Assembly (NCBI GenBank): GCA_030615505.1
Contig: JAUWZD010000002.1
Span: 2,436 to 66,435 of the forward strand
Source: Spirochaetales bacterium
GTDB lineage: Bacteria > Spirochaetota > Spirochaetia > SZUA-6 > DRHE01
Direction of reading: 5' to 3'
DNA length: 64,000 nt
Each line of letters begins with the position of its first letter. Position 1 is the stretch's first letter. The position numbers and the translations under genes were made by a program. This document shows positions 564 through 61,615 of the stretch, in pieces. The notes below the pieces were generated by a model that did not search any database, was not told the DNA's origin, and was given only the letters and a program-made list of their open reading frames with translations.

Positions 564-1352
564 ATGGGGAATCACCATATGGGAGTACTCGGTATTCTTA
601 CCTGCGAAATATTGGAACTCGAATTTGCCCATCTGCTTGTTACAGATAACGAACTGTCCCGGATTACAATTCTGGAAGATATCCGATCCTTCCGCTTGAT
701 CGAGGCGCTGGAATCAAAAAAGGTCAAGAAATTAAGACGAATCCCTCATATTAATAGTTTTTCTCCTGATCATTCAGAGCAGCCGGAGGTGCTTGTACGC
801 GTATTGGAACTGGCGCTTCACCGAACAAGGAAAAGATTGCAGGAAGGATTGGTCAATGCGGCCCGCGAGATGAGTCACCATGTGGATGCATTGCTTCTCG
901 GGTATGGTTTGTGCGGTAACGCACTTGAAAACCCGGGCGAGCTGCTTGATGTTGACCTGCCCGTCTTTATCCCCATGGACAGGGATCATCCTGTGGATGA
1001 CTGTGTCGGTCTGCTCCTCGGGGGACGGGACTGTTACTATGCGGAACAATGCAAAACCCCCGGAACATTTTTTATGATACCGGGATGGACGTACCATTGG
1101 AAGACAATATTCGGCCGAGACTGCAGCGATATGGATCCGGACATGGCAAAGCTCCTGTTGGCCAATTACGAGCGATCTCTTCTGGTTTTAACGCCTGTGG
1201 TGTCCAAAGATGAAATGAAAAAAAATGTGGAAGAATTCAACAAACTGTTTGGCTTACGGAGCGAAGCGCGTGAAGGAACGATGGAAATTTTAAATGAAAC
1301 CTGGAAAGACGCCAAAGCGTTTCTGAAGACTAAAATGGGGAATAGATTATGA
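564..1352 (+). CDS. Hypothetical protein, tentatively DUF1638-like.
   Basis: 262-aa ORF. The N-terminal [14 protein letters not shown] motif resembles DUF1638 (tentative, from memory). Its 3' end overlaps the start of the next gene by 4 nt. Confidence 0.4.
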
Positions 1353-11639: not shown

Positions 11640-12211
11640 ATGAATAATAAATCCGGGAAAAGAGAATTTAATCGTTTTCCAATTGGACTAGGGGACGTCC
11701 ATTTGTAATTAAATAACTGTAAGACGAGAGTAAGGGATTGGGGCGTAATGTTAAAAATAGAGGTCGGTGATCTACAATTTTGTCGGATGGGGTCAGATCC
11801 GCTGTATAGAAAATGATCCAGACATACCTGAGGCAGTATTGATGATTGTCGATTGAAAAACAAAGAAGGTTTTTGTTTTAAGGAAATATGGTACTTTGTG
11901 GGATGGTTTTAAACAGACTATGGAAAACGCCTATAAATATCTCTTCGGTGCAAGAAGCGGATCAGTTCGAATGTGTCACCTGACAACTTGAGGCCGAGCC
12001 GATAATCTCCGATCCTTAAGCGGTAGTAGCTGGGAAAACCTGCAATCTTTTTGACTCCTTTTAGTCCTGCCGGGGAGTCTAACCTTTTCGATCCGGCAAG
12101 GGAAATAAGCCGATCCCCAGCCGTAAAAAACCGGGGATCGGCTCGCGCTGCAATACTTAAAAGAGCTTGTACACGGCGTCGTTGGACATGTCGAAAAGCC
12201 CGGTATCATCT

Positions 12212-12909
12212 TCATAGGCCTTCGAACGGCTGTCTGGAGAAACAACGATCGTGGGTTGGAACCCCTCCATGACCTTCGATCAGTCTATCGACAAGTTGTT
12301 CCTCCCCGCCCCAGCCGCGGATAACTTTTTCGGGCGGCGCCACATCTCTCTGGGTGTTGTATGGCCTATTCTCCAGGCCCCAGCGAAGGTACATCTCAGA
12401 TCCGAGAATCGACAGCGCCCGGGTAGCCTCCACCACCAGGACCTGGGACAGGGCACCCCCTTTGAGAACCCGGGCGGGGTAGATATCTCCCACCTTTCTC
12501 TGAGGATACAAGTCCAACCCTGATTCTCCGTCGGTAAACAGAAGAGTGACAATTCAAAAGGGGTCCATCCTGATGACGCTCCTGCATACCCCAGCCAGTC
12601 CGTCTATCCCCGTGCGAAAATCTACCGCTTCCACCGCCAGCAGAATCCGCATCTGCGGCGTGATCTGTATCAACGCCTTCGATCCAACAACGGCGGTAAA
12701 GCCTCAACCCGCTGCTTCAACCTCGTGTAGTCCAGGACCAGTGTCTGCGCAATATCGCTGATGGAGTGCCGCTCCGACAACTCGGCCGCCGCCTGCCACA
12801 AGCGCTGCGGTATTCGCGAACCCCTTTTTCTGACGCTGCACCAGCTTTGGAACTCCTTCAACACTTCCGCCGGTGTCCGCCGTCCGTCCGGCAAATTCTC
12901 CTGTTTCAT
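12212..12909 (-). other. GC-rich (~60%) degenerate foreign fragment with short ORFs, including one transposase-like HTH. Unassigned mobile-element remnant.
   Basis: Local GC is clearly higher than the flanks. The ORF 12670..12909 (RRTPAEVLKEF...ISDIAQTL) looks like a transposase N-terminal HTH. A perfect 11-bp inverted repeat lies at 12108–12143. No intact gene. Confidence 0.25.
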
Positions 12910-13112
12910 CAGCCATCCTCCTCGTGATCTTTGGATAGCCTATGCTACACCCTCCGGCTGCGATTTCCACGCACGCTCACCGAAAGGACACGATGAATTG
13001 ACCTTGGCATCACGGTATTCCAAAAGCAGAATGACACCTCCCGCCGTAATAAGTATATGTGGGCTCAAAAGCTCAAATAAACCAAACGCTTACAGAACCT
13101 CTATCTTCCTAA

Positions 13113-13783
13113 TATACCCATATACCAAGAGGGCAAAATGTCCTGCAAACGGTATTCAAAGAACATTTTGATGATTTCAGAGAAGTGTATGATGAGAAAT
13201 ATTCAAAAGCATACGGCAAATATCGTATTGATAGAATTAAAGAAGTTGTAGAAGAATTCATAAAATTCGGAGACTATAAAGAAGGTCTTGCTAGAATAAA
13301 ATCCACAGGATGAAACCATGTACCAACCCTGACTGCGGTCATCCACAGGATGCCCGCTGGGTGCCCGCAGGGTGAAACCAAAACCATGATTATTTTGTTC
13401 CCCTATCCTGCAAGGGATTCTATCTATGTCCGTCTTGTCATCAGAAAAGAACCCTCTTGTTTGCAGAACAGATCACACAAGAAGCTCTCTTAAGGCTTCC
13501 GCACAGACAGTGGGTTTTTTGTATTCCCAAGTGCCTTCGAGTGTTTTTCAAGCATGACAGAATGCTGTTCTCCGATATATCCAGGTTGATCTTTCAGATG
13601 CTCCAATCCTACTATGATAAGGTTTTAGCTAATTCTATCCAAACCGGCGGCACCCTGGACGGATCATCCGGATGGGCACATGACATCGAGCAACCCCGCA
13701 CGTACTACGAGAACTCATGCGTTTACTTGAAGTCCTTGTGTCGGGCAGTTCCCTGTGTAAAGCTCATTCAAATGATTGTTTGA
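13113..13783 (+). pseudogene. IS91-family (rolling-circle, HUH Y2) transposase N-terminal fragment. It has no start codon, is interrupted by two repeat-element insertions, and is truncated after the zinc-binding/N-terminal domain.
   Basis: Translation gives FKEHFDDFREVYDEKYSKAYGKYRIDRIKEVVEEFIKFGDYKEGLARIK, then [insert] CTNPDCGH [insert] DYFVPLSCKGFYLCPSCHQKRTLLFAEQITQEALLRLPHRQWVFCIPKCLRVFF. This matches the conserved IS91-family N-terminus (GF-RvrC-CG-SCK-CPSC...HRHWVFTlP). Confidence 0.7.
13302..13386 (+). repeat. Repeat-element copy A. A 17-bp short form (13302–13318) and a 45-bp long form (13342–13386) flank 23 bp of transposase coding sequence.
   Basis: TCCACAGGATGAAACCA, and TCCACAGGATG CCCGCTGGGTG CCCGCAGGGTG AAACCAAAACCA. 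Deleting both restores the transposase reading frame. Confidence 0.7.
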
Positions 13784-13945
13784 AGGGAGCAGAACATGGG
13801 CAAGCAATTCGAACTGTTCGAAGCGGAGGAGAGACATTGGATCGACAGACTGTGGCAGTCGATGCCGCCGAAAGCACGGGGCGAGGTAATCGGAATTAGT
13901 ATCATCTTCTTGACGTATGTGGGATCACCGGTACTCTGATAGCCG

Positions 13946-15213
13946 ATGAGGAAGGTTCCACAGGAGAAATGGCATACGCTTTTGAAAGATCATCACGAGG
14001 GCTATATCTCATGGGAGCAGTTTGAAATAAACCGAAAACGCATCGGGTCGAACGGGCGGCCAGGAAAGGGCCCAGGAGCACCACGGGAGGGGGATGGACT
14101 TCTGCAAGGGATCATTCTCTGCGGACGCTGTGGAAGAAGGATGAGAATCGCTTACGGAAAAGGCTCCAGGCCGACCCATTATAGCTGCGCACAAGCGCGC
14201 AAGCAAACAGGTGCTCCGGTGTGTCAGAGTTTTGGAGCACGCCGGCTGGAGCAAGCAGTGGAAGGACTCTTGTTGGATTGCCTGTCACCGCTGGGCGTAG
14301 AGGCTATGCTGGAAGCGGCGAAGGTGTATACCGAGGATAACGAGGTGGAACGGACCCGATGGAAACAAAACATCGAGAGAGCACACTACGAGATGAATCT
14401 CGCTCGCCGGCAGTATGATGCGGTGGATCCAGAGAATCGGCTTGCCGGAAGGTCCCGACCTTGGGGTTGCTCGGGAGCTGGAAAGACGGTATGAAAAGGC
14501 ACTTAGAGCCATAGAAGAGATTGAGTCGGAAGCGTATTGCCCGATGTCTGATCGAGAACGTAGTGGTAACCTCACCGCGAGAAGGCACAATGCTTATAGC
14601 CCAGGTGCACTGGAAAGGCGGCGAGGTTACAAAGCTCGATGTACTCAAGGGCAAGAGTGGCATTCACCGTTATGTGTCGCCTCTTGAACTCGTTGAGTTA
14701 ATACGTACGCTGGCAACTGAGTTTTCAGACATCCAGATCGCACGCATTTTGCACCGCAAGAGACTGAAGACACCAAAGGGTCGGCCTTTCATGGCTTACC
14801 ATGTAGCCAACGTGCGAAATAAATATAACATTCCTAAGGGTCTACGGGTGCCACTACGAGGGGAAGACGTCTATACGGCAGAAAAAGCAGCAGAACTGTT
14901 GGGTGCCTGTCGAAGTACAATTATCCGGTGGTTAGAAGTTGGCTTGCTACGCGGTTCACAATTGACATCTGGAGCTCCGTGGCGTATCGTAGTAACCAAA
15001 GAGGACATCGAAAGGCTAAAACCGAATGAGGTTGGTGAAGGTAGGTATCCGCTTAAGGGAGCGGCTTCGGCCTTAGGGGTGAGCCAGCAGACCGTTTTGC
15101 AAAAGGTTAAGTCGGGAGAGCTTGAAGCCATTCGAGTGCGAACAGGCAGGCGTGTAGGCTGGAGAATTCGTTTACCCATAAGCATTTACGACAATCAACC
15201 AGCCTTGTTTTAA
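13946..15213 (+). pseudogene. Large serine recombinase, C-terminal two-thirds, split over three frames by frameshifts. The catalytic resolvase domain is absent.
   Basis: Recombinase domain and zinc beta-ribbon (LLQGIILCGRCGRRMRIAY...YSC). A coiled coil in frame 0 (ELERRYEKALRAIEEIE). A C-terminal segment in frame 1 with two excisionase-type HTH motifs. Frames 2, 0 and 1 meet at about 14415–14687. Confidence 0.65.
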
Positions 15214-15232
15214 TGGTTTTATGATTTTGTAT

Positions 15233-15586
15233 CTAAAAGGCTTTTTCCTTAAAATCTCTAAATGTTATTATCTCGATCCTTTTAAACGGATTTAAAACAA
15301 GTAAATCTTTATCACCTGTTATTATATAATCAGCTCCTCCATTTACGGCAGTTTCTAAAATAAAATTATCCTTAACATCTCGACACGCATTTACTCTTTG
15401 CTTTATTTCAACTTTAATACTCCACCTTTGCAGCAAGCGTAACAGAACTAAACGTCTTCTTTTAATAATATATTGTTGAAGTTTAGGCCTTGTAATTACT
15501 CTGAATAATTCGTTAAGCTGCTTCCGGGATGTTAATATTAGCAGATCTTTACTTTCTATTGCATTTTCGAACTCTACTACCTTCAC
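15233..15586 (-). CDS. PIN-domain toxin-like protein (PIN_3-like). It is N-terminally short and may lack the first catalytic Asp.
   Basis: C-terminal DNFILETAVNGGADYIITGDKDLLVLNPF matches the PIN_3 consensus. GTG start, with an in-frame stop 5 codons upstream. Confidence 0.5.
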   Translation of the reverse strand: MKVVEFENAIESKDLLILTSRKQLNELFRVITRPKLQQYIIKRRRLVLLRLLQRWSIKVEIKQRVNACRDVKDNFILETAVNGGADYIITGDKDLLVLNPFKRIEIITFRDFKEKAF

Positions 15587-15800
15587 GATACATCTTCTCT
15601 CTTACTGCTTCAACTTCTTCTGTTATCTCTTCAAATGTAACAGGAATATCTTTTAATTCTTCCTTGACCCTGCTCCACTGGGCAAATAATGTTTTATCAT
15701 CCAGATACTCTGCTAATTTCTCCTGTTCATCAAACGGGAGCTGGTCAATAATATTTTTCACCTGATTAAAATCCAAGTCTATTTTCAAATTGACAGACAT
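15549..15800 (-). CDS. Putative antitoxin partner of the PIN protein.
   Basis: 83-aa acidic ORF directly upstream, overlapping the toxin start by 38 nt. No family recognised. Confidence 0.35.
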   Translation of the reverse strand: MSVNLKIDLDFNQVKNIIDQLPFDEQEKLAEYLDDKTLFAQWSRVKEELKDIPVTFEEITEEVEAVREKMYREGSRVRKCNRK

Positions 15801-19743: not shown

Positions 19744-21054
19744 ATGAGAGCTGTGGATCTTATAATGAAGAAGAGAGACGGGAAGGAGCTGTCCAGGCAA
19801 GAGATCGATTTCCTTATTCAGGGTTATGTGAGAGAAGAGATACCTGATTACCAGGTTTCGAGTTTTGCCATGGCCGTTTTTTTTAATGGTATGAGCTTTA
19901 AAGAAACCGGCTATTTAACCCGGGCCATGATTGATTCAGGGGATGTGATAGACCTTTCAAAATTAAATGGAGCTCTGGTGGATAAGCATTCTACCGGTGG
20001 GGTGGGTGATAAGGTCTCTCTGATTCTGGCGCCTTTAGCCGCTGCCTGCGGGCTTATGGTTCCAATGATGAGCGGTAGAGCTTTGGGCCATACCGGGGGT
20101 ACCCTGGATAAGCTCGAATCCATTCCGGGCTACCGGACGGACCTTTCCGTAGATTCTTTCATCATGGGCCTTGAGAAGGTAGGTTTCGCTATGACCGGTC
20201 AGAGCGAGAAGGTGGTGCCGGCAGACCGGAAGATGTATGTACTAAGGGATGTTACAGCTACGGTGGAATCCATTCCCCTTATCACTGCCAGCATTATGTC
20301 TAAGAAGTTTGCCGAGGGGGCGGAGGCTTTTGTTTTCGATGTGAAATGCGGAACCGGAGCTTTTATGAAGAGCATTGAGGATGCTGAAACCCTGGCAGTC
20401 TCTTTGGTCAATACGGGAAAGAGCCTGGACAGGCGCATCAGCGCAGTAATCAGTGATATGAACCAGCCCCTGGGACTCACAGTCGGCAATTTTTTAGAGG
20501 TACGCGAGGCGATTGAATGTCTTAACGGCAGGGGACCGAAAGATCTGATGGATCTCACCCTCCGCTTAACCGGCCACATGCTGCTTTTAAGCGGAATTGC
20601 CTGTAATATTGGATCTGCTGAAGAATTGTGCCGCGTGAAGATAGAAGACGGCTCTGCATGGCAGAAGTTTCTGGATAATGTGGAACTTCAGGGCGGAGAT
20701 CCTGAAATTGTCCTGAATCCGGAAAAAGGACCCAAAGCCGGCCGTGTGGTTTCGCTGTCAGCGCGGGAAGAGGGCTATGTGGAGCGGGTCGATGCATATC
20801 TGGTAGGCCTGGCCGCGGGGCTGCTGGGCTCAAGCCGGGCCAGGAAGGAAGACCCTGTACTGCCGGAGGTAGGGGTAGAGCTTGTAAAAATACAGGGAGA
20901 TTCAGTTAAATTCGGGGATGAGCTTTGCCTTATTCACGGCAGGGATCCCGATAAGATACGGGAAGCTGAAAAGCTTCTAAACAAGGCCTATAAGCTGTCT
21001 GATGAGAAGATATTGCCCTCAAAACGGGTTATGAAAGAAATTGTAAATCAATGA
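19744..21054 (+). CDS. Pyrimidine-nucleoside (thymidine) phosphorylase family protein.
   Basis: DKHSTGGVGDK motif and glycosyltransferase family 3 organisation. Confidence 0.85.
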   Translation: MRAVDLIMKKRDGKELSRQEIDFLIQGYVREEIPDYQVSSFAMAVFFNGMSFKETGYLTRAMIDSGDVIDLSKLNGALVDKHSTGGVGDKVSLILAPLAAACGLMVPMMSGRALGHTGGTLDKLESIPGYRTDLSVDSFIMGLEKVGFAMTGQSEKVVPADRKMYVLRDVTATVESIPLITASIMSKKFAEGAEAFVFDVKCGTGAFMKSIEDAETLAVSLVNTGKSLDRRISAVISDMNQPLGLTVGNFLEVREAIECLNGRGPKDLMDLTLRLTGHMLLLSGIACNIGSAEELCRVKIEDGSAWQKFLDNVELQGGDPEIVLNPEKGPKAGRVVSLSAREEGYVERVDAYLVGLAAGLLGSSRARKEDPVLPEVGVELVKIQGDSVKFGDELCLIHGRDPDKIREAEKLLNKAYKLSDEKILPSKRVMKEIVNQ

Positions 21055-23171
21055 TATGGGAAAAAATTGAAACAGACCCCGATGAAGTAAGGGAGATCGC
21101 CAGACAGAACGATCTTGACCTGATCTCCTCATCCATACTGATTAGAAGGAATTTAACGGACAGCCGTTCCCTACGTTTCCTGCTCGAGGATGATCTGCTT
21201 CTCCTTCACAATCCCTTTTTGTTCCGGGATATGGAGAAGGCGGTAAACCGTGTAAACCGCGCCATAGATCGGAAAGAGAAGATTATGGTTTTCGGCGACA
21301 GGGATGTAGACGGCATTACATCAACCGTTTTACTGGTCCAGCTCATAAGGGATTTAAGCGGCAGGGTTGAGTGGAAGCTTCCCGGGGAGAATGAAGACTA
21401 TGGGCTCACTCGCCAGGTAATTGAGGATTCGTCTGCCTCTGCCTGCAGCCTGATAATTACAGTAGATTGTGGAATCTCAAATATCGATGAAATAGCCTTA
21501 GCCAGGGAAAGAGGAATAGATACAGTGGTCATAGATCATCATATTCCACAGGATACGCTTCCTGAGGCCGCGGCAATAATAAATCCGAAACAGGCGGGAA
21601 GTACCTACCCGTTCAGAGATCTTGCAGGATGCGCTGTGGCTGCGAAATTTGCCTGGGCTGTGGTTTTCTCAAGCACGCCAATGTACGGCAAACCTGTGTG
21701 GCTTTTAAATATTAAACCGGACAACGAAACCTATTCTGTAGAAGCTGTAAAACTTGTGAACCTGGTGGAAAGAGAGCGCCTGGTTTTAAGTCTGCTTCCC
21801 GAACTTTCAAGCTCGCAGAAAAAACGGCTTTTACCCCTGATGTCGGCAGATGATATTGTAGTTTATGACTCAGCCGGCATGAGGAAACTTATAGACAGAA
21901 TAGGATTAGGTGCTGAGAACCTGAAGCTTACGGATATTCGTCCAATGGTAGGAAAATTCTTTCCGGATTTAGAGGGTAAGAGCCTGCTTAAAATCAAGAG
22001 CCTGATAAGGCCGGCCCAATATGGAAGCCGGGGCTCCGGTGAGCTTGATATGCTGATCAGCCTCCATAATACTGTTATACTGAAACAGGAAAATGCTCTC
22101 CTATCAAAGCAGAATTATTTTATGGATCTGGCGGCCTTAGGTACCCTGGCCGATTTGATGCCCTTAGCTGATGAGAATAGAATCATCGTGAAGAGGGGAT
22201 TGGAAGTTTTAAATCAGATGGGACGCCACGGCCTGCGCGAACTCATTATAAAACAGAGGCTTTACGGAAAGAGAATTACTACCACGGATGTTACCTGGCA
22301 GATTACACCGGTGCTTAATGCCGCCGGAAGGATGGGTGAGCCGGAAAAAGCAGCCTCTCTACTGCTCTCAAATGATCCACATGAGGTTGAAGAACTGGTG
22401 GATTATATTCTCGATCTGAATAGAAAACGAAAATATCTGGGAGATAATGTCTGGAAAAGATGTTTTACCCGGTTCAAAGAGAGCCTCGATAAGGCTGATG
22501 GGAAGTTTATCCTGGTCTATGATCATTCAATTCCAAGAGGAATAACCGGGATCCTGGCCTCCAGATTAATTAATTATTTCAAAGTTCCGGCCATAGCCAT
22601 TGCCGTAAGCCATGATAAAGCTGTCGGTTCTCTTCGCAGTCCGTACTCGCTAGAAGGATTTCTAGATCATTATGCCGATCTTTTTCTAAATTACGGCGGT
22701 CATGATTGCGCGGCAGGTTTCAGCCTGGCCAGTTCCATTATTCCCGAATTTGAATCGAGATTTTACAGGATGATAAGGGAACTTAATCCTCCCGATCATA
22801 GTGGAGAAAAATTGATCATCGATGCTGAGGTGCCTCCCGACTACCTCAATCCAAATTTAATCAGTGTTGTAGAGCTTTTTGAGCCTTACGGAGAAGGCAG
22901 CCCTGTCCTAATTTTCTTGACCCGGCAAGTTAGGATTGAAGCACTGGATATCATCGGTAAAAGCGGTATGTCCCACCTGAAGCTGCTTATCGGAGCCGGG
23001 AAATACAGATGGCCGGCAATTTACTGGAACGCGGCGGAAAGAGCCGGAAAGGATTTTACGGTTCACGACACTGTAGATATCGCATACCGACTGGCAAGAA
23101 ACTATTTTCAGAATACAGAAACCCTTCAGCTTACTATTTTAGATCTGAAACCATCCACAGGATGCCCATAG
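21051..23171 (+). CDS. recJ: Single-stranded-DNA-specific exonuclease RecJ. Its last 6 codons are supplied by repeat element B.
   Basis: DHH motifs (FGDRDVDGITS, VVIDHH) and DHHA1 (GGHDCAAGF). Confidence 0.9.
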   Translation: MIWEKIETDPDEVREIARQNDLDLISSSILIRRNLTDSRSLRFLLEDDLLLLHNPFLFRDMEKAVNRVNRAIDRKEKIMVFGDRDVDGITSTVLLVQLIRDLSGRVEWKLPGENEDYGLTRQVIEDSSASACSLIITVDCGISNIDEIALARERGIDTVVIDHHIPQDTLPEAAAIINPKQAGSTYPFRDLAGCAVAAKFAWAVVFSSTPMYGKPVWLLNIKPDNETYSVEAVKLVNLVERERLVLSLLPELSSSQKKRLLPLMSADDIVVYDSAGMRKLIDRIGLGAENLKLTDIRPMVGKFFPDLEGKSLLKIKSLIRPAQYGSRGSGELDMLISLHNTVILKQENALLSKQNYFMDLAALGTLADLMPLADENRIIVKRGLEVLNQMGRHGLRELIIKQRLYGKRITTTDVTWQITPVLNAAGRMGEPEKAASLLLSNDPHEVEELVDYILDLNRKRKYLGDNVWKRCFTRFKESLDKADGKFILVYDHSIPRGITGILASRLINYFKVPAIAIAVSHDKAVGSLRSPYSLEGFLDHYADLFLNYGGHDCAAGFSLASSIIPEFESRFYRMIRELNPPDHSGEKLIIDAEVPPDYLNPNLISVVELFEPYGEGSPVLIFLTRQVRIEALDIIGKSGMSHLKLLIGAGKYRWPAIYWNAAERAGKDFTVHDTVDIAYRLARNYFQNTETLQLTILDLKPSTGCP

Positions 23172-23221
23172 GGTGCCCACAGGGTGAAACCAAAACCAAA
23201 ACCATCCACAGGATGAAACCA
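23154..23221 (+). repeat. Repeat-element copy B: a 51-bp long form plus a 17-bp short form in tandem, inserted between recJ and the M23 peptidase gene.
   Basis: TCCACAGGATG CCCATAGGGTG CCCACAGGGTG AAACCAAAACCAAAACCA, then TCCACAGGATGAAACCA, then TG. Confidence 0.75.
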
Positions 23222-24300
23222 TGAGATCATCCCTGATTCTTCTACTGCTGTATCTTTCCTTCCATCTTCCGGCAGAGATCCTCTGCCTCAGTCCGGAAGA
23301 GGATTCATACTGTTACGTTTCACCGGAAGCGGATTACCTTTGGGCTGAAGGAAAACTGATGCCCAGGCAGGGGTTGTTCTCCTATTTTTCGGGGCAAGGT
23401 TCACACTTGCTTCCTGAAGTTATTTATTCTGAAGAATTTGACCGGGGGAATATACTCTGCGGATTTATTATTATCGATTGTGTTATTGAACATTTTTCCG
23501 TAGAGCTTGAGGATCAGGATGGAAATCCTATAGCAGAAGCTGGAGGATTTAAAATAGGTAATAGACAGGGATTTGAAGTTTGGTGCTTTCTATTGGGTAT
23601 CCCGAGTGATCTGACAGGGGGAATTTACAGGCTTACAATAATGGGAGGGCAGGGGAATCGTCATTTCCGTTACCTGGGAGCAGTAAAGGTAGGAGCTAAA
23701 CAGTACGCTTTTGAGCGGATTTTACTGGATAAGGGTCTTGAGGATCTGGTGTCAAAACCTGATGTGCGAAAAGTGAAAGAGGCCAGAAATTTAAGGGAAC
23801 TTCTTTTATCCTTTCGTTCTGATGCCTTCTATCATACCGGATCCTTTATACTGCCGGTTTCAGGAGCCAGGATAAGCTCCAATTTTGCTGCCAGGCGTAA
23901 ATATCAGTTTATGGGAGGAGGATTCTCTTCTGTTCATAATGGAATTGATCTGGCAGCGCCGCAGGGAACACCGGTTATGGCCTGCGGCTCCGGTAAGGTT
24001 GTTTTTGCAGGCTACAGGATCATGAGCGGTAATACCGTGGTGCTTGAACATCTACCCGGAGTATATACCCTGTACTTTCATCTACTGGATCTGAAGGTCA
24101 GGGACGGCGATATGGTGAAAAGCGGCGGGATCTTAGGAAGTATCGGCATGACCGGCCTGGCAACAGGACCCCATCTCCACTGGGAGTTGCGAGTTTCCGG
24201 TGTTGCAGTGGACCCCGGAGCCGTCCTTCAGTCCGGCCTTATTGACAAAACTGCCGTTTCAGGTATCATTAAAGAGATTATTTTAGAAGGAAGGAGGTGA
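23221..24300 (+). CDS. M23 family metallopeptidase (LytM domain), secreted.
   Basis: N-terminal signal peptide. [14 protein letters not shown] (HxxxD) and HLHWE (HxH) motifs. Confidence 0.85.
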
Positions 24301-24515
24301 TTTATATAGCTGCAATTACTGTAGGAGAAGATGAAGTTCTTGATAAGGCAATTAAGCGCTTCAAGCGAATGATTGAGAAAGAAGGCGTTATAAGAGAGTG
24401 GAAGAGAAGAGAGTTTTTCGAAAAGCCTTCTACAATTCGAAATAGAAAAAGAAAAGCTTTAGAGAGAAAGCGCTTAAAAAAAATGCGTAAAATCCATTCT
24501 TTTAAAAGATATTGA
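24297..24515 (+). CDS. rpsU: 30S ribosomal protein S21.
   Basis: [18 protein letters not shown]...[17 protein letters not shown] matches S21. GTG start overlaps the peptidase stop. Confidence 0.8.
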
Positions 24516-25283: not shown

Positions 25284-26058
25284 GTTTTTGTAACCTTTCC
25301 TCCATTATCCCGACGAGTTTTGAGAAGAAGAGAGTAAGGATAAGATATACCAAAGCTACGACCGTATAGGTTTCAAAATAGTAGAAGGTTTTGGAAGCGA
25401 ATTCTCTGCCTCTTCTTAGAAGATCAGAAACAGCAAGGATGGATACTAAGGAGGAATCTTTAAGCAGGGCAATAAATTCGTTTCCCACAGGCGGAAGAAC
25501 TACTTTAACGGTTTGGGGCAGTATGATCCTTCTCATGGCCTGCATCCTGGACATTCCAAGTGCTAATGCTGCTTCCATCTGGCCCTTTGGAATGGACTGA
25601 ATTCCTGCCCGGAATATTTCACCGAGGTAGGCCCCGTAACAGACAGTCATGGCCGTGATGGCTGCTATCAGCCGGGGCACCCGGATGAGCTTTCCCATTG
25701 CGTAGTAGATGTAAAAGAGCTGTACTAAAAGGGGAATCCCGCGGATGATTTCAACATAAATGGTAGCGATTTTATTGACTACTTTATTGCGGGAGATTCT
25801 ACCCAGGCCGGTAAAAAGGCCCACGATGAGGGAAAAGATTATGGAGAGTACGGTTACCTGGAAGGTCCGCAAGATACCATCGGGCAGAAAGTAGATAATC
25901 TGCCGGTATGGTTCCGATCTGATTAGTGGGAGGATGATGAGCAGGCCCAGGGCCCCGAAAAAGGAGATCCGCCAGGCACTTAGGCCTGCCTTTTCCCCCT
26001 TTTCCGGGATAAGGGCCCCGTCCGAGACATCAATTTTAATTTTTTTTATCTCAGCCAC
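25273..26058 (-). CDS. Polar amino-acid ABC transporter permease.
   Basis: Multi-TM protein with the EAA-like loop typical of His/Gln/Glu-family permeases. Lies in an operon with the ATPase. Confidence 0.85.
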
Positions 26059-26810
26059 TTTTCTTCAATTTCAGTGTAGGTGGGTGTGTTCAGGACCTTT
26101 TTAAGGCCCCGATTTATGGCTTCCAGCACCTCAGTGTTTCCCTTTTTAACGACAATGCCGTAGTACTCATCGGTGAAGGGTTTGCCGACGATCTTCAGCT
26201 TTCCCTTATAATTCTCATTCTGAAGTGCAAAATCGGCGGCCACGGGGGTGTCGGCCACGCATCCATCGATCCTTCCGTTGACCAGGTCCATAAAGGCGAG
26301 TCCTATCTCATCATAGGTCTTCAGATCTACTCCGGAAACCTCTTCAATGGCAAACGAGCCTGTAGTGCCGATCTGGGCGCCTACGGATTTACCCTTCATG
26401 TCTTCCAGCGTCTCCACCCCCTCGCTTTCGGTACGGACAATCAGAACCTGACCGGCGTTGATATACGGGTCAGAGAAATCCATGGTTTTCTTTCTTTCCT
26501 CCGTGATGGTTACTGAGGACATGACAGCATCGTATTGTCCGGCAGGAAGTCCGGCAAAGATGCCGTCCCAGGCTGTGTTCTTAAACTCCATCGTGAAACC
26601 GCCCGCTTCAGCGATGGCATTCATTAGATCAATATCGAAGCCCACAATTTCCTTGTTCTCATCTACCATCTCCATGGGGGGCCATGTAGCATCCGTGGCA
26701 ACTACAATATGGAGCTTTTCAACCTTTTCTTCTTTCTTAGCACATCCTGTCATGAGCAGTCCGGCCACTGCGGCCAGGATAACAAATAAAAGAATCGTCT
26801 TTTTCAGCAT
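26046..26810 (-). CDS. Amino-acid ABC transporter substrate-binding lipoprotein (family 3 SBP).
   Basis: Signal peptide with lipobox (LMTGC). SBP_bac_3-like sequence. Confidence 0.85.
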   Translation of the reverse strand: MLKKTILLFVILAAVAGLLMTGCAKKEEKVEKLHIVVATDATWPPMEMVDENKEIVGFDIDLMNAIAEAGGFTMEFKNTAWDGIFAGLPAGQYDAVMSSVTITEERKKTMDFSDPYINAGQVLIVRTESEGVETLEDMKGKSVGAQIGTTGSFAIEEVSGVDLKTYDEIGLAFMDLVNGRIDGCVADTPVAADFALQNENYKGKLKIVGKPFTDEYYGIVVKKGNTEVLEAINRGLKKVLNTPTYTEIEEKWLR

Positions 26811-26880
26811 AGAAGCCTCCTTATTAAATATAAATAATATATTAGATCATAATAGAATTGAGGTCATTGTCAAGTCAATC

Positions 26881-26940
26881 TACAGGGTGCCCACAGGATG
26901 CCCGCAGGGTGCCCACAGGGTGAAACCAAAACCAAAACCA
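26881..26940 (+). repeat. Repeat-element copy C (60 bp) in the divergent intergenic region upstream of modA.
   Basis: TACAGGGTG CCCACAGGATG CCCGCAGGGTG CCCACAGGGTG AAACCAAAACCAAAACCA, then TGG. Confidence 0.75.
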
Positions 26941-27003: not shown

Positions 27004-27744
27004 ATGAAGGATAGAATAATAATACGCAGTTTTGCCTGGTTATTAGCTTTAATGTTGTCCATCTCCACTATACAGCCCCTTCAGGCCGATGCCGATGTAG
27101 TGGCCGTTGCAGCGGGTATTGCTCCCTGCGTGGAGGAGGTTATGCAGGCCTTCATTGATCAGGGCGGAGAACAATTGCAGATGGTAAAGGGAGCCTGCGG
27201 CCCCCTGGCACGACAGATGGCGGCAGGAGCACCTTACGACCTGCTGCTTGCATCGGAGCCGCGCTGGCCGAACTGGCTGAAAGAAAAGGGTGTACTCCCC
27301 AATCTAATCGTTTTTGCCATAGGACAACTTACGTTATGGCACGATAAGGCTGCTCCTCCTGAGCTGGCTATCCTTAAGGGGTCGCTGGTAGCTGTGCCGG
27401 AACCGGAGACAACAGCCTACGGAATGCTGGCAAAGGAATACCTGATCCGGGAAGGACTGTGGAGAGATGCCCTGGAAGGCAAGAGAATAATCTTCTTAGG
27501 AAGCGCTCCCCAGGCAGTGCTGGCGGTTCGCCATGGAGCTGCTGCAGCTGCCTTCATTCCCCACAGTATGGCAATAAAAGCAAAGGGAAGCTGCCTGATT
27601 ATCCCTGGAGCAGTAATAGATCAGGTGGGGGGACTTCCACTGAAAGCTGGAAAAAGCGCTGGAGATTTCTGGTCCTTCTGCCGTTCCCGCAAAGCTGAGC
27701 CCATATGGCGCAGGTGGGGCTTTAAACCGGTGCAGGTTGAGTGA
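27004..27744 (+). CDS. modA: Molybdate/tungstate ABC transporter substrate-binding protein.
   Basis: Signal peptide, ModA-like length and motifs, and context with modB and modC. Confidence 0.75.
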   Translation: MKDRIIIRSFAWLLALMLSISTIQPLQADADVVAVAAGIAPCVEEVMQAFIDQGGEQLQMVKGACGPLARQMAAGAPYDLLLASEPRWPNWLKEKGVLPNLIVFAIGQLTLWHDKAAPPELAILKGSLVAVPEPETTAYGMLAKEYLIREGLWRDALEGKRIIFLGSAPQAVLAVRHGAAAAAFIPHSMAIKAKGSCLIIPGAVIDQVGGLPLKAGKSAGDFWSFCRSRKAEPIWRRWGFKPVQVE

Positions 27745-33569: not shown

Positions 33570-34008
33570 CCGTGCCGCAAAGGGGATCTATCAGGATCTA
33601 TCCGGCCCGGAAATTGAAGGAATTATCAGGAAAAGCTTTCCGAACTCAAGAATTACTAAAGAGATCGTGCCGGATAAAAAAGAGGCCATCCTGGCTGCTT
33701 TTACTAAATACGCCGGAGCCGATTATATTCTGACAGCCGGGGGTACGGGCATCTCCCCTCGGGATATTACACCTGAAGTAACCGAGCAGTACTGCGACAG
33801 GGCTCTTCCGGGTATTGCCGAAATCCTGAGGGCGGAATCTTACAAAAAAACTAAAAATGCCATGCTGTCCAGGGGCTATGCCGGCTTGAAGGGAAATACC
33901 ATTATTGTCAACTTCCCGGGATCAGTTAAAGCGGTCCGGCTCTGCACTAAAACCCTGGTGCCGATCATGGAGCATGGACTTAAGATGCTGCGAGGCGAGG
34001 GACACTGA
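33541..34008 (+). CDS. moaB: Molybdenum cofactor biosynthesis protein MoaB/MogA family.
   Basis: ILTAGGTGISPRDITPE motif, MoCF_biosynth fold. Confidence 0.8.
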   Translation: MKLIVITISDRAAKGIYQDLSGPEIEGIIRKSFPNSRITKEIVPDKKEAILAAFTKYAGADYILTAGGTGISPRDITPEVTEQYCDRALPGIAEILRAESYKKTKNAMLSRGYAGLKGNTIIVNFPGSVKAVRLCTKTLVPIMEHGLKMLRGEGH

Positions 34009-34087
34009 AAGAAATTTCACGCAGGGATCGCGGAGTCCGCAGGGAGCTTGACACTTTATAAGCATTTTGGTATATTCCGTTTGGCAA

Positions 34088-34160
34088 CGCAGGGTAGAGC
34101 AGTTGGAAGCTCGTCGGGCTCATAACCCGGAGGTCGCAGGTTCGAGTCCTGCCCCTGCTA
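34088..34160 (+). tRNA. tRNA-Met (anticodon CAT) with initiator-type features.
   Basis: The cloverleaf folds by hand: acceptor CGCAGGG/CCCTGCT with an unpaired C1·U72, D-arm GAGC/GCTC, anticodon stem with three G:C pairs next to the loop CTCATAA, and T-arm GCAGG-TTCGAGT-CCTGC. It is close to E. coli tRNA-fMet. No CCA is encoded. Confidence 0.85.
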
Positions 34161-34255
34161 TGTGTAAATCTATATAATATATAGACTTATAAACCACAAA
34201 ATAATTGATGTAACCAGTATTGACACATTTTTAAAACGGTGATAAGCTCTTCTCC

Positions 34256-35431
34256 GTGCCTCGATATAAGGAGCCGTTTTCTCTCTATCCCAGAAAAACA
34301 AAAAAGGGCGTTGCCGTCTGGTATTATCGAACTTACGATAAGGATGGCGAGCGTACTTATGGCCGATCTACCGGCGAATCTTCAAAGACTCTTGCCCGAC
34401 AATATTGTCAGTCTCTGATTTCCAAAGGCAGATTGATTCCTCAGAAATCACCTACGCTCGCAGAGTGGACAGAGAAAAGGCGATGGTGGATATGGGGAGA
34501 GTGTCTGTATATCAAGGGTCGGCTTGCTCGCTCAGATGTGGATAGACCGGGAATTACTCATCGTTATTGCGATTTGAATTATCAAGTTATGATGAAGAAA
34601 ATTCTATCGATTCATGGAGACAAGCAGCTTGACTCTATTATGCCCGAGGATTGTGAAAAACTATTATTCTCTTGGGCAAATCAGGGAGTCAGTTATAAGA
34701 CTGCAAATAATTGGGCTTCAGTATATCGGGTTATGATGGGCGAGGCAGCCAGATTAAGGATGATAGACGAAAATCCCTGGAAGCGAGTGCTTTCATTATC
34801 TTCCAGCACAAAGAGGCGGGGGATTCTCACGATGGCCGAAGCCCGAACGCTTCTGAATCCGGCGACAATAAACGAAGTGTGGGACAAACACCATATGTAT
34901 TATTGCATCAACCTGATTGCATCTCTCACAGCGATGAGACAGGGGGAGATCCTCGCACTGAGGAAAGAAGATGTGTTCTCCGATCATTTGCATATCAGGC
35001 ATTCATGGTCTGCAAAATATGAGTTGGGGAAAACTAAGACAAAAGAAATTGGCGATGCGCCGATCCCCGGATTTCTGTATCGAGAAATTGAAAAGTATCT
35101 GGAATATGATGGTTATATTTTCAGCTTCAATGGGGGGAAGAGGCCAGCTACAGGGAACCGTGTAACCGAATGGCTATATCGTGCCATGAGAAATATCGGG
35201 ATTTCAGAGCATGAGAGGGTGGAGCGGAATTTAACCTTCCATAGTTGGCGTCATTTTTTCAATACGTATCTGCGGAGCCGGGGCGTGCCAGATTCGCAAA
35301 TAAGGAAAGTTACCCGGCATAAAACCGAAGAAATGACAGAGCATTATACAGAATTCGGATTGGAACATTATAAAGAAACATACGATGCTCAGGATGGATT
35401 CGGGGAATTGATACAGGAGGAAAAAGGATGA
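34256..35431 (+). CDS. Tyrosine-type phage integrase.
   Basis: C-terminal catalytic R...HSWRHFFNTYL...Y pattern and an N-terminal arm-binding region (KKGVAVWYYR). Confidence 0.85.
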   Translation: MPRYKEPFSLYPRKTKKGVAVWYYRTYDKDGERTYGRSTGESSKTLARQYCQSLISKGRLIPQKSPTLAEWTEKRRWWIWGECLYIKGRLARSDVDRPGITHRYCDLNYQVMMKKILSIHGDKQLDSIMPEDCEKLLFSWANQGVSYKTANNWASVYRVMMGEAARLRMIDENPWKRVLSLSSSTKRRGILTMAEARTLLNPATINEVWDKHHMYYCINLIASLTAMRQGEILALRKEDVFSDHLHIRHSWSAKYELGKTKTKEIGDAPIPGFLYREIEKYLEYDGYIFSFNGGKRPATGNRVTEWLYRAMRNIGISEHERVERNLTFHSWRHFFNTYLRSRGVPDSQIRKVTRHKTEEMTEHYTEFGLEHYKETYDAQDGFGELIQEEKG

Positions 35432-35595
35432 AAGAAAATAATATCGCTGGATTGCGCAGAAGGACGAAAATAACCTGTCCCAAATGTGGCAGATTTCTCC
35501 ATACTCACGATGAGAGGGATGGGATATGTCCTGTTTGTGAAAAGGAGAAATATGACGGGCTAAAGGGACTCGGCGCAGTGGAGGAAAAACCATGA
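35428..35595 (+). CDS. Small zinc-ribbon protein (55 aa), not in the ORF track.
   Basis: CPKCG...CPVCEK. ATG overlaps the integrase stop (ATGA), and its own stop overlaps the next ATG. Confidence 0.4.
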   Translation: MKENNIAGLRRRTKITCPKCGRFLHTHDERDGICPVCEKEKYDGLKGLGAVEEKP

Positions 35596-35846
35596 AAGAA
35601 TATCAGACCAGATTTGACGGTCGATATATCGGACTGAGGGCGGGAAAAGATACTGATGGTTGTGGCGATGTTGCACAGATGGTATCCGTAGCAAAAACGA
35701 CAGTAACCTATTATTCTGTCAGTGATGGATCATTCAAGACCGCAAAGGCAATGATGAAATGTGATGCTTGCGGGAAAGATGATCTTGAAACTGATTATAA
35801 TTATTGCCCGAACTGTGGGCTGAAATTTGAGAAGAAAGGTAAATAA
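35592..35846 (+). CDS. Small zinc-ribbon protein (84 aa).
   Basis: DGCGD...CDACG...CPNCG. Confidence 0.45.
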   Translation: MKEYQTRFDGRYIGLRAGKDTDGCGDVAQMVSVAKTTVTYYSVSDGSFKTAKAMMKCDACGKDDLETDYNYCPNCGLKFEKKGK

Positions 35847-35868
35847 GAGGCAAGTAAATTACAAATTC

Positions 35869-36144
35869 TCACGGTTCTGTCAAGTCTATCGTTTCATAAG
35901 TCTGTCTTATCCGATCCACATCAACCATATATTCAACGAGCTGCAGCCAGAAATCAAGAGGCATGTATATCAAGCCATTCTGCATATATAACTGCCCCGT
36001 AGAATCAGGCGGAACAGGCCATTCAATCTGAATCGGGATCGGCTCGACCTCTACGGGCAAGCTCGGACATGATAGAAAGAGAAGCGTCAAACTTATCAGC
36101 ATCAGAACCGGAACGTAGCTTCTTTTTTTTCTTTGCCGTTTCAT
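35869..36144 (-). CDS. Outer-membrane lipoprotein, o-spanin-like (Rz1-like).
   Basis: Lipobox LLFLSC, Pro-rich mature part, and a 122-nt out-of-frame overlap with the upstream TM/coiled-coil gene. Confidence 0.5.
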   Translation of the reverse strand: MKRQRKKRSYVPVLMLISLTLLFLSCPSLPVEVEPIPIQIEWPVPPDSTGQLYMQNGLIYMPLDFWLQLVEYMVDVDRIRQTYETIDLTEP

Positions 36145-58368: not shown

Positions 58369-58402
58369 GGGGGGAATTTAGGGGGAATTTAGGGGGAATA
58401 TT
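58369..58402. repeat. Three direct repeats of GGGGGAATTTA (11-bp period) about 190 bp upstream of the late operon.
   Basis: Read directly: GGGGGGAATTTAGGGGGAATTTAGGGGGAATATTT. Confidence 0.5.
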
Positions 58403-59895: not shown

Positions 59896-60258
59896 TTACC
59901 AAGTAAGTTTTTCTTGGCTAGCTTCTAATTGTTCTCTATACATCATAAAAATAGTCGAATAATTGCACATGCCAATTGAGCAATATGTCTCAATTACATT
60001 ATCTAATAATTTTCTGTTTTTCGCTTTCATCAATTTCTTAAATGCCTCAAGCTCTTCCTTTTCCATCATCCGTAATATTAACGGATCACCCATGCCGATA
60101 GCAGTATAGGTTTTTTTAACGTTCTCCTGAATAAAGGCGATAACTTCCTGTTTTTCTTTATCCGTTCCCTTGAAATCTAATGGATGAATAAAATCATCAG
60201 CAAATAGAGGCGCACAAACAAAAAATATAACAGTCAAGATAAATGCTTTTTTCTTCAT
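59896..60258 (-). CDS. Small secreted protein (accessory gene).
   Basis: Signal peptide MKKKAFILTVIFFVCAPLFA, SD AGGAGG. Low GC. Confidence 0.45.
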   Translation of the reverse strand: MKKKAFILTVIFFVCAPLFADDFIHPLDFKGTDKEKQEVIAFIQENVKKTYTAIGMGDPLILRMMEKEELEAFKKLMKAKNRKLLDNVIETYCSIGMCNYSTIFMMYREQLEASQEKLTW

Positions 60259-60293
60259 CTTTCCTATCCTCCTAGTTCCAACAAGGTAAAAAG

Positions 60294-60842: not shown

Positions 60843-60956
60843 ATTTGCCTCCTGGTTCCAATATATCATTTCAAGTATTTTACATCCAGATAATTTTTAC
60901 AAGCAAAAAAATCAAAGATTATGCAGCCGGAGGCCGATTTTCGATATAAAGGGATT

Positions 60957-61325: not shown

Positions 61326-61412
61326 AATTTATTTATCGTAAATACGAGTAAAAAACGTAAATATTTTTATTTTACTATTGCATTATCTCGCAAACAGGAG
61401 TATAATCAGCTC

Positions 61413-61604: not shown

Positions 61605-61615
61605 GGAGCCAGTCC

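What the first reader, a model, noticed from the sequence alone, without database searches (positions are those of the whole stretch)
23141..23223. Element insertion into an ATGA-overlapped recJ / M23-peptidase junction rewrites the recJ C-terminus and supplies the peptidase SD
Removing 23154–23221 gives ...TTA GAT CTG AAA CCA TGA GAT..., where recJ ends LDLKP-TGA and the peptidase starts at the overlapping ATG (a classic ATGA coupling). With the 68-bp insert (long plus short element), recJ instead reads six codons into the element (STGCP, stop TAG at 23169). The peptidase ATG is now preceded by the element-borne AGGATGAAACC spacer. The element therefore uncouples the two genes and donates a new ribosome-binding site.
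Basis: partly seen in the sequence, partly recalled or inferred. Interest (0 to 1): 0.65.

Follow-up and report, generated by a model that had tools for sequence, protein, structure and literature searches.

The report
Tiny repeat splits overlapping gene junction
Two copies of a very small DNA repeat (51 and 17 bases) sit exactly on the four-base overlap that used to link the recJ and peptidase genes of a spirochaete, so RecJ gains five residues and the genes now lie 49 bases apart. The 17-base unit is the more interesting part, because it also occurs as a clean insertion in unrelated DNA from other samples.

Summary
Positions 23154-23221 are a 51-nt "long" plus a 17-nt "short" copy of a repeat that has three more copies in the window.

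Removing them restores ...CTG AAA CCA TGA GAT..., an ATGA stop/start overlap. All six orthologous recJ/M23-peptidase junctions I retrieved have an NTGA overlap. No RecJ homologue ends in STGCP, and the peptidase N-termini align from Met1. The structural reading is therefore strongly supported.

The functional reading is weaker:
- The element-borne AGGA sits at a normal distance from the start codon, but binds a generic anti-SD poorly (-4.1 versus -11.1 kcal/mol for a native GGAGG).
- It is mostly buried in a 5-bp hairpin.
- The 17-mer also rebuilds an ATGA overlap, between a 3-codon mini-ORF and the peptidase.

The element itself is unusual:
- It is an exactly bounded 17-mer, TCCACAGGATGAAACCA, without target duplication or inverted repeats.
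- In the window it is always on the + strand and followed by TG.
- Clean empty sites exist for three unrelated hosts: the recJ junction, IS91-family transposase genes (two diverged lineages, same nucleotide), and a palindromic repeat in another metagenome.

How it moves is unknown.

The parts
21051..23171 (+). recJ (DHH, DHHA1, RecJ_OB domains). The last five codons (23154-23168, STGCP) and the TAG stop are element-derived.
23147..23153 (+). Host GAAACCA, which forms a 7-nt direct repeat with the last 7 nt of the insert (23215-23221). It makes the exact cut point ambiguous and is a possible microhomology.
23154..23204 (+). Long element, 51 nt. It has three 11-nt hairpin units (23154-64, 23165-75, 23176-86) and three AAACCA units (23187-23204).
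23169..23171 (+). The TAG that now ends recJ. It arises from the private CCCATAGGG variant. The other two long copies have CCCGCAGGG or CCCGCTGGG and are open in this frame (STGCPQGAHRVKPKPKP).
23205..23221 (+). Short element, the 17-mer TCCACAGGATGAAACCA. Its last A is now the A of the peptidase ATG.
23203..23215 (+). CATCC-ACA-GGATG hairpin (5 bp, -5.0 kcal/mol as RNA). It contains the SD-like AGGA at 23210-23213.
23213..23224 (+). Element-borne mini-ORF ATG AAA CCA TGA. Its stop overlaps the peptidase ATG, giving a new ATGA overlap.
   Evidence: direct reading; frame of ORF 23009-23224
23184..23216 (+). Possible relay mini-ORF in the recJ frame: GTG AAA CCA AAA CCA AAA CCA TCC ACA GGA TGA. 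Its stop overlaps the ATG at 23213.
   Evidence: direct reading; inference only
23221..24300 (+). M23 peptidase gene. Its start is homologous to the starts of the orthologues.
24297..24515 (+). rpsU (ribosomal protein S21). It is still joined to the peptidase gene by a GTGA overlap.
13302..13318 (+). Second exact copy of the 17-mer. It interrupts an IS91-family Zn-finger reading frame between ARIK and CTNPDC.
13342..13386 (+). Long element, 45 nt (3 hairpin units + 2 AAACCA units), in the same gene between CGH and DYFVPL.
26879..26940 (+). Long element, 62 nt (4 hairpin units + 3 AAACCA units). It lies in the divergent intergenic region between the SBP_bac_3 gene (26046-26810, - strand) and the SBP_bac_11 gene (27004-27744, + strand).
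13120..13655 (+). Truncated IS91-family transposase gene (Zn_Tnp_IS91 domain) that hosts two of the copies.

Best explanation
Positions 23154-23221 are two adjacent copies of a very small dispersed insertion module. The module is built from 11-nt mini-hairpin units (TCC-ACA-GGA-TG or CCC-RCW-GGG-TG) followed by AAACCA units. The minimal form is the 17-mer TCCACAGGATGAAACCA.

The copies landed between the A and the TG of the ATGA that once joined the recJ stop to the M23-peptidase start, inside the tightly overlapped operon recO-ligT-deoA-recJ-M23-rpsU.

Shown:
- The insertion is clean: no target duplication and no inverted repeats.
- RecJ now carries five extra residues and stops 49 nt before the peptidase ATG.
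- The peptidase start codon is retained.
- The 17-mer places AGGA at -11 and a three-codon mini-ORF whose TGA overlaps the peptidase ATG.

Inferred:
- The RecJ tail is harmless, because orthologue tails vary from 2 to 18 residues.
- Peptidase translation now depends on some mix of weak direct initiation, re-initiation over 49 nt, and relay through the element's own stop/start overlaps.
- The module tolerates sense-strand insertion because it carries these signals. In phase 0 the 17-mer reads TCC ACA GGA TGA, and an overlapping ATG AAA CCA ends exactly at its last base. A gene is therefore split into ...STG-stop and MKP-... in frame.

Inferred with low confidence: the module is moved in trans by a single-strand (HUH-type, IS91- or IS200-like) transposase.
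For: Ancestral overlap:
- The orthologue junctions are L003 CAATGAAAA, L006 CCATGAGGC, L042 and L043 ATGAGAG, L044 ATGAGAA, and L004 GTGAGAT.
- For RecJ tail lengths, 65 of 100 homologues have 2 residues after LD[LIV], as the restored junction does.
- The other overlaps in the operon are intact.

Real insertions with empty sites:
- L045 is about 93% identical in DNA to the window's IS91-like copy. It lacks exactly the 17 nt and the 45 nt.
- 111 of 120 homologue clusters read through the 17-mer site.
- The palindromic repeat in L040 lacks exactly the 17 nt that L026 and L028 carry.

Recurrent insertion:
- The 17-mer sits at the same nucleotide in K-type and Q-type IS91-like genes that are about 53% identical in protein.
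- The closest relatives of each type (76-97% identity) have an empty site.

No TSD. All five window copies are on the + strand. All four 3' junctions with host DNA are followed by TG.

A comparable logic is reported for MIRUs, which insert at start codons with a -4 nt coupled ORF (PMC12548453).
Against: - No transposase or other mobilising gene could be linked to the element. The window holds only a truncated IS91-family gene.
- Only five copies are visible, and the rest of the genome was not available.
- The long form was found nowhere else. GTDB representatives gave only chance single hits. JGI metagenomes gave 0 hits, and no called protein contains its translation.
- The nearest relative shares only 69% RecJ identity, so there is no same-species empty allele and no dating.
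- The 7-nt GAAACCA repeat at this site would also fit copying from another copy by microhomology.
- Several metagenome hits to the 19-mer search pattern (the 17-mer plus the following TG) are plain coding sequence: L037 is GlnRS, and L027/L041 are a 522-codon ORF. Hits outside the IS91-like genes must therefore be checked one by one.
- All statements about translation are computed, not measured.
Confidence: 0.8

Rival explanations
1. Adaptive ribosome-binding-site donor. The element was retained here because its AGGA and spacer now drive independent translation of the peptidase, replacing coupling to recJ.
For: - AGGA starts at -11 with a 7-nt spacer, inside the -9 to -15 range of SD cores in this window.
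- The restored upstream sequence has essentially no SD (-0.1 kcal/mol).
- The A/C-rich AAACCA run is predicted to be unstructured.
Against: - The duplex energy is only -4.1 kcal/mol, against -11.1 for a native GGAGG.
- AGGA has an unpaired probability of 0.24, because it lies within a -5.0 kcal/mol hairpin.
- The same module sits inside a dead transposase gene and 63 nt from the nearest start, where it can have no RBS role.
- Orthologues manage without any SD at this junction.
Confidence: 0.25
2. Templated copying rather than transposition. During replication or repair, a 3' end ending in GAAACCA annealed to another copy of the repeat, copied it, and returned. This is microhomology-mediated template switching or gene conversion.
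For: - A 7-nt direct repeat GAAACCA flanks the insert.
- The unit numbers vary (hairpin units 1, 3, 4; AAACCA units 1, 2, 3), as expected for slippage-prone repeats.
- The copies cluster within 13.3-26.9 kb.
Against: - The other sites offer only 1-3 nt of microhomology: AAA|A, CAT, and A in the L040/L028 pair.
- The 17-mer has identical boundaries in unrelated hosts from different samples.
- It recurs at one nucleotide in two diverged IS91-like lineages.
Confidence: 0.2
3. Native spacer. The 68 nt are ancestral, and the relatives lost them.
For: None found. The possibility arises only because the closest relative is distant (69% RecJ identity).
Against: - Six of six orthologous junctions overlap.
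- The same sequence occurs at unrelated loci.
- RecJ tails do not support it.
Confidence: 0.02
4. Assembly artefact. The repeat was mis-joined into the junction.
For: Short-read contigs break inside the element.
Against: - Logan contigs L002 and L001 read from recJ into the long element, and from the long element through the short one into the peptidase. They are consistent in unit counts and in the ATA variant.
- The recJ and peptidase flanks are otherwise colinear with the orthologues.
Confidence: 0.03

Closest known systems
Mycobacterial interspersed repetitive units (MIRUs)
   Same: Small repeats lying within operons in the direction of translation. They are reported to insert at start codons so that an ORF inside the repeat is coupled to the downstream gene with -4 nt spacing (PMC12548453; PMC3184786). 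Here the 17-mer's ATG-AAA-CCA-TGA overlaps the peptidase ATG in the same way. The internal units also vary in number, as in a VNTR.
   Different: MIRUs are about 40-100 bp and are described from mycobacteria, with short direct repeats at filled sites. This unit is 17 nt (45-62 nt in composite form) and lies in a spirochaete MAG. It shows no target duplication and also inserts inside genes. Sequence relatedness to MIRUs was not tested.
REP / REPIN elements mobilised by RAYT transposases (GTAG- and CGTC-tagged palindromes)
   Same: Very short hairpin-containing dispersed repeats, sometimes clustered and sometimes inside genes. They are thought to be moved by HUH tyrosine transposases (PMC3733652; PMC3116915).
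   Different: REPs are 20-40 bp (21-65 bp in another account). They have stems of 5-13 bp and a GTAG or CGTC tag. The units here have 3-5 bp stems and no such tag in the 17-mer. No RAYT gene could be looked for outside the window.
Small dispersed repeats (SDRs) of cyanobacteria (Elhai et al. 2008, cited in PMC3116915 ref. 43 and PMC2884548 ref. 29)
   Same: Repeats of about 20 bp that may be mobile and occur in varying tandem numbers. From my own recollection, they are often nested in other repeats.
   Different: They come from a different phylum and, as far as I recall, have a different sequence. The paper is not in the held library, so no feature could be checked.
Miniature fragments mobilised by IS91-family rolling-circle transposition
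   Same: IS91-family transposases act in trans, leave no inverted repeats, and can move short pieces of DNA (229-679 nt fragments of IS801; PMC3189936). Here the 17-mer is found mostly inside IS91-family genes.
   Different: The known fragments are more than ten times longer, derive from the IS right end, and end in a consensus tetranucleotide. The left ends of the IS91-like copies compared here show no resemblance to the 17-mer.
Rickettsia palindromic elements and other repeats fused into ORFs
   Same: Selfish repeats that are tolerated within or at the ends of protein-coding genes, and that extend the C- or N-termini of proteins (PMC3184786).
   Different: Those are longer and usually inserted in frame. 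The 17-mer shifts the frame and instead provides a stop plus an in-frame restart.

Membership tests
NTGA translational coupling (recJ to M23 peptidase) | [quoted passage not shown] | tested here: not met
   In the present sequence the recJ TAG ends at 23171 and the peptidase ATG starts at 23221, a 49-nt gap. The feature is met in the restored sequence and in 6 of 6 orthologues. It is also met between the element's mini-ORF (23213-23224) and the peptidase.
Shine-Dalgarno ribosome-binding site | A purine-rich match to the anti-SD, 5-10 nt upstream of the start, that is accessible | tested here: inconclusive
   AGGA is present with a 7-nt spacer, within this genome's usual range. The duplex energy is only -4.1 kcal/mol with a generic anti-SD, against -11.1 for a native GGAGG, and the unpaired probability is 0.24. 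The organism's own 16S 3' end is not in the window.
MIRU-like intercistronic repeat | Lies between co-oriented genes of an operon, in the same orientation, with an internal ORF overlapping the downstream start by 4 nt | tested here: met
   Direct reading of 23154-23224 and the operon context.
MIRU-like intercistronic repeat | Unit of about 40-100 bp, mycobacterial, with short direct repeats at filled sites | tested here: not met
   The units are 17 and 45-62 nt, and the host is a Spirochaetales MAG. The empty/filled pairs show no duplication.
REP / REPIN | An unpaired GTAG or CGTC tag next to a palindrome with a stem of 5-13 bp | tested here: not met
   There is no GTAG or CGTC in the 17-mer on either strand. 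The stems are 3-5 bp, compared against the feature table in PMC3733652. Only the first unit of the 26879 copy reads CTAC.
REP / REPIN | A RAYT (Y1 HUH) gene flanked by the repeats in the same genome | not testable with these tools
   The genome is not among the GTDB representatives that were scanned. Only 64 kb plus about 2.4 kb of flank were readable.
MITE | Terminal inverted repeats and a target-site duplication | tested here: not met
   The ends TCCACAGG... and ...GAAACCA are not inverted repeats. The empty and filled sites differ by exactly 17 or 45 nt.
IS200/IS605-type single-strand 'peel and paste' derivative | No duplication, strand-specific insertion next to a short fixed target, and subterminal hairpins at both ends | tested here: inconclusive
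   No duplication is seen, all five window copies are on one strand, and the host TG always lies 3' of the element. However, there is only one hairpin, only a 2-nt target, and no TnpA gene in view.
IS91-family one-ended miniature fragment | The sequence derives from the IS right end and ends at a consensus tetranucleotide | tested here: inconclusive
   There is no resemblance to the left ends of the IS91-like copies. The right ends could not be defined, because all copies are truncated or diverged.
Known RNA family (Rfam) | A covariance-model match | tested here: not met
   There were no matches at E<=1 in 23050-23320. At the gathering threshold the window yielded only a tRNA.

The most novel reading that the evidence does not exclude
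The 17-mer TCCACAGGATGAAACCA is a free-standing mobile unit, smaller than the 20-40 bp range given for REPs. It would be moved in trans by a single-strand (HUH-type) transposase and would home repeatedly into one nucleotide of IS91-family transposase genes. It would carry a built-in stop/restart cassette (TGA overlapping ATG, with the restart frame ending at its last base), so that sense-strand insertions split genes or operon junctions into translationally linked pieces instead of killing them. The long forms would be slippage-expanded derivatives.
Probability: 0.3. Interest if true: 0.8.

Novelty: new variant of a known kind. Interest (0 to 1): 0.6.

Why it matters
For this locus, it gives a clean natural experiment on translational coupling. 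An operon linked by 4-nt overlaps has had exactly one junction opened to +49 nt by an insert that brings its own weak SD and its own ATGA overlap. Constructs with and without the 68 nt would separate the contributions of the SD, of re-initiation distance, and of mini-ORF relay.

For mobile DNA more generally, a 17-nt unit with exact boundaries and clean empty sites in three unrelated hosts pushes down the size at which DNA can behave as a discrete insertion unit. It also raises the question of what recognises it. Its recurrence at one nucleotide of IS91-family transposase genes suggests either a parasite of a transposon or a by-product of rolling-circle transposition.

Tried and rejected
1. 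A 2-nt 'AT' target duplication. Rejected because the Q-type copies read ...ACAG|TCCACAGG.

2. An insertion in a GlnRS gene (L037). Rejected because, with the 19-mer search pattern (the 17-mer plus TG) kept, the frame reads [16 protein letters not shown]. From my recollection of the E. coli GlnRS sequence, this matches PNHPNKPEMGSRQVPF, so it is a chance match.

3. L027/L041. These are also chance matches. The minus strand carries an unbroken 522-codon ORF across the 19-mer.

4. Ribosome hopping or bypass across the 17-mer. A matching take-off and landing codon exists for K-type copies (AAA) but not in the right frame for Q-type copies, so I dropped this idea.

5. A conserved downstream ATCCTG as a pairing target. 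It is not conserved among K-type copies, including the window's own.

6. REP membership. There is no tag and the stems are too short.

7. Similarity between the 17-mer and the left ends of the IS91-like copies. None was found.

8. Genome-collection scan with the long core: 12 single hits in unrelated phyla, which I take as chance.

9. Metagenome scan with the long core: 0 hits. Two viral scans: 0 hits.

10. Protein search with all five open frames of the long element: no candidate.

11. Plasmid and phage collections: only chance-level hits, with E of about 0.4-0.5.

12. Rfam: nothing.

13. Structure: beyond the 5-bp hairpin, the folds are no better than shuffles.

14. About 2.4 kb of extra flank from the same run: no further copies.
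Full report
**The observation**

- recJ (21051-23171) ends ...LDLKP followed by STGCP and a TAG at 23169-23171.
- The M23 peptidase gene starts at 23221.
- Between the host bases ...CTGAAACCA and TGAGATCA... lie 68 nt that parse into two pieces.
  - The 51-nt piece (23154-23204) consists of three 11-nt units, TCCACAGGATG, CCCATAGGGTG and CCCACAGGGTG, followed by three AAACCA units.
  - The 17-nt piece (23205-23221) is TCCACAGGATG followed by one AAACCA.

The same architecture recurs in the window.
- An exact 17-mer lies at 13302-13318.
- A 45-nt form (3 + 2 units) lies at 13342-13386.
- A 62-nt form (4 + 3 units) lies at 26879-26940.

None of 100 shuffles reached the observed counts for the three diagnostic patterns. 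All five copies are on the + strand. A Logan assembly of run SRR14872670 reads from recJ into the long element, and from the long element through the short one into the peptidase. It has the same unit counts and the same ATA variant.

**Was the junction an ATGA overlap?**

Deleting 23154-23221 gives TTA GAT CTG AAA CCA TGA GAT. RecJ then ends ...LDLKP-stop, and the peptidase starts [10 protein letters not shown].

The closest RecJ homologues are only 69%, 63% and 59-54% identical. They come from Spirochaetales-type MAGs and metagenomes. I fetched the DNA for six distinct orthologous loci.
- In all six, the peptidase gene follows recJ with a 4-nt start/stop overlap.
- Five are ATGA (L003, L006/L007, L042, L043, L044).
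- One is GTGA (L004/L005). There the gene caller chose a later start, but the GTG-initiated N-terminus aligns with the others.

Further evidence points the same way.
- The four peptidase N-termini I aligned match from Met1 through a signal-peptide-like segment.
- Among the 100 RecJ homologues that carry the terminal LxLxxxD motif, 65 have two residues after it. The window has seven (KPSTGCP), and the restored sequence has two. No homologue contains STGCP.
- The other junctions of the operon are still 4-nt overlaps (ligT on recO, recJ on deoA, rpsU on the peptidase gene), so this is the only one that has been opened.

**What the insert does to expression (computed, not measured)**

- The recJ stop now lies 49 nt upstream of the peptidase ATG.
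- The TAG comes from a variant private to this copy (CCCATAGGG). The other two long copies read CCCGCAGGG or CCCGCTGGG and are open in the recJ frame (STGCPQGAHRVKPKPKP).
- About half the genes in this window have a GGAGG-type SD whose core starts 9-15 nt before the start codon. The overlapped genes recO, ligT, deoA and recJ have none.
- The peptidase now has AGGA starting at -11. Its duplex with a generic anti-SD is -4.1 kcal/mol, against -0.1 for the restored upstream sequence and -11.1 for a native GGAGG.
- AGGA is the 3' arm of the CAUCC-ACA-GGAUG hairpin (-5.0 kcal/mol) and has an unpaired probability of 0.24.
- No promoter-like site lies on the + strand within the insert.

The 17-mer also carries ATG AAA CCA. 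Together with the host TGA, this forms a three-codon ORF whose stop overlaps the peptidase ATG, so an ATGA overlap is re-created with a different upstream partner. In the recJ frame, a GTG at 23184 opens KPKPKPSTG-stop, and that TGA overlaps the ATG at 23213.

A recent review notes that coupling can persist over tens of nucleotides and declines gradually beyond +50 nt (PMC12548453). 'Donates an RBS' and 'uncouples' are therefore possible but unproven. The RBS is weak and largely masked.

**What the element is**

For three unrelated hosts I could compare filled and empty sites.

*1. The IS91-family transposase gene*
- The window's truncated IS91-family gene (Zn_Tnp_IS91, E = 3e-13 after restoration) is interrupted by both forms.
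- A copy about 93% identical in DNA, from another sample (L045), lacks exactly the 17 nt (AGAATAAA^ATGTACC) and exactly the 45 nt (GCGGT^CATGATT).
- 111 of 120 homologue clusters read straight through ARI[KRQ]|CTNP[DE]C.

*2. The same site in diverged lineages*
- An exact search for the 17-mer plus TG in JGI metagenomes returned 22 loci.
- Twelve carry it at this same nucleotide of IS91-family genes. These fall into two lineages, K-type (ARIK) and Q-type (ARIQ), which share only about 53% protein identity.
- The nearest relatives of each lineage (76-97% identity) have empty sites.
- This requires either repeated insertion at one nucleotide or repeated precise loss.

*3. A palindromic repeat*
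- A palindromic repeat of about 170 nt in L026/L028 carries the 17-mer, reading AAAATTA|17-mer|TGAAGC.
- The homologous repeat in L040, from a different metagenome, reads AAAATTA|TGAGGC, shorter by exactly 17 nt.

In no case is there a target duplication or a terminal inverted repeat. The four 3' junctions with host DNA in the window are all followed by TG. The metagenome hits were selected for that TG, so they do not count towards this.

Several other metagenome hits are ordinary coding sequence, namely L037 (GlnRS) and L027/L041 (a 522-codon ORF). I had first misread one of them as an insertion. The remaining five (L020, L025, L030, L038 and L040 at 7025) are undecided.

The long form was found nowhere outside this genome. 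Its 14-nt core GATGCCCGCAGGGT does recur in other small hairpin units that litter the Q-type IS91-like genes. It also occurs at the end of the contig from the 63%-identity relative, 50 nt upstream of the SBP gene. That position is homologous to the window's 26879 copy.

**How it may work**

In phase 0 the 17-mer reads TCC ACA GGA TGA. An ATG overlapping that TGA opens ATG AAA CCA, which ends exactly at the last base of the element. The upstream part of the host gene therefore ends ...STG-stop, and the downstream part restarts MKP-... in frame.

This is the situation in the IS91-like genes, where gene callers do start a protein at MKPCTNPDC (P0193). It is also the situation at the recJ junction.

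My best reading is a selfish micro-repeat that is tolerated on the sense strand because it carries stop, restart and a weak SD. The same logic has been proposed for MIRUs. This reading is inference.

The mechanism of movement is unknown.
- Points in favour of a single-strand HUH-type transposase acting in trans: seamless insertion, a single strand in the window, a terminal mini-hairpin, and the association with IS91-family genes.
- Points that leave it open: I found no such gene, no REP-type tag, and no resemblance to the IS left ends.
- Microhomology-templated copying is a live rival at this particular site, because of the 7-nt GAAACCA repeat. It fits the other sites poorly.

**Comparison with known elements, and novelty**

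- In function, the junction resembles a MIRU insertion.
- In size and hairpin content, the units resemble REPs and cyanobacterial SDRs.
- In company, they point to IS91-type rolling-circle elements.
- The element fails the defining tests for MITEs and REPs, and the size and host criteria for MIRUs.
- It has no Rfam, plasmid or phage counterpart.

I rate it a new variant of a known kind (a small dispersed repeat inserted at an operon junction). There is a 0.3 chance that the 17-mer is a distinct and unusually small mobile unit.

**Verdict**

The functional claims are plausible but weak, and the element itself deserves follow-up. Interest 0.6.

Noticed in passing
window 13120-13655; loci L021-L036, L024, L035; proteins P0157, P0170, P0174, P0192, P0200, P0201, P0234, P0235: IS91-family Zn-finger genes from sediment-type metagenomes are riddled with other micro-insertions of about 17-45 nt, in both orientations. 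Examples are GTCGTAGATGCCCGCAGG, GTCTTCATCCCCGCAGGGG and CCCACTGGCGTGGAT. Some are in frame (for example PLGGxxxR at the same place in two lineages). All 120 homologue clusters are at most 261 aa long, even on Mb-sized contigs.
   Followed up: partly
L004 7355-7387 versus window 26879-26940: The relative with 63% RecJ identity has related hairpin units (GATGCCCGCAGG, TGTCTTCATCCC) 50 nt upstream of the SBP_bac_3 gene start. That is the position homologous to the window's 62-nt copy. The contig ends inside them.
   Followed up: partly
L028 about 200-400, L026 about 960-1051, L040 9150-9314: A palindromic, MITE-like repeat of about 170 nt is shared by two different metagenomes. The 17-mer is present in one and absent in the other.
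   Followed up: partly
window 11700-15600: A cluster of mobile-element remnants: an ISL3 HTH fragment (12670-12909, - strand), the IS91-like Zn domain, a serine-recombinase Zn ribbon (13946-14494), an HTH_17 protein (14521-15213) and a PIN_3 protein (15233-15586, - strand).
   Followed up: partly
L004 4831 / L005: The gene caller placed the peptidase start 137 nt downstream of recJ. A GTG overlapping the recJ TGA gives an N-terminus that aligns with the orthologues, so the called start is probably wrong.
   Followed up: yes
window 23202-23216, minus strand: On the antisense strand, the hairpin followed by TTTTGGTTTT scores as an intrinsic-terminator-like site. The match is weak (6-bp stem).
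   Followed up: no
window 987-1000, minus strand: TCATCCACAGGATGA, the hairpin part only, lies inside the DUF1638 gene 564-1352. It is probably a chance match.
   Followed up: no
window about 34000-36000: The cumulative GC skew peaks here, where the gene strand flips from + to -. A tRNA lies at 34088-34160. All five repeat copies lie on the positive-skew side.
   Followed up: no
window 60000-64000 and L046 8576-10939: A low-GC stretch (0.35 at 60-62 kb) with a run of small ORFs and a PAPS_reduct gene. It may be prophage-like.
   Followed up: no
window 58370-58399 and 553-578: Two perfect short tandem repeats: GGGGGAATTTA x2.7 and GGGGAATCACCAT x2.
   Followed up: no
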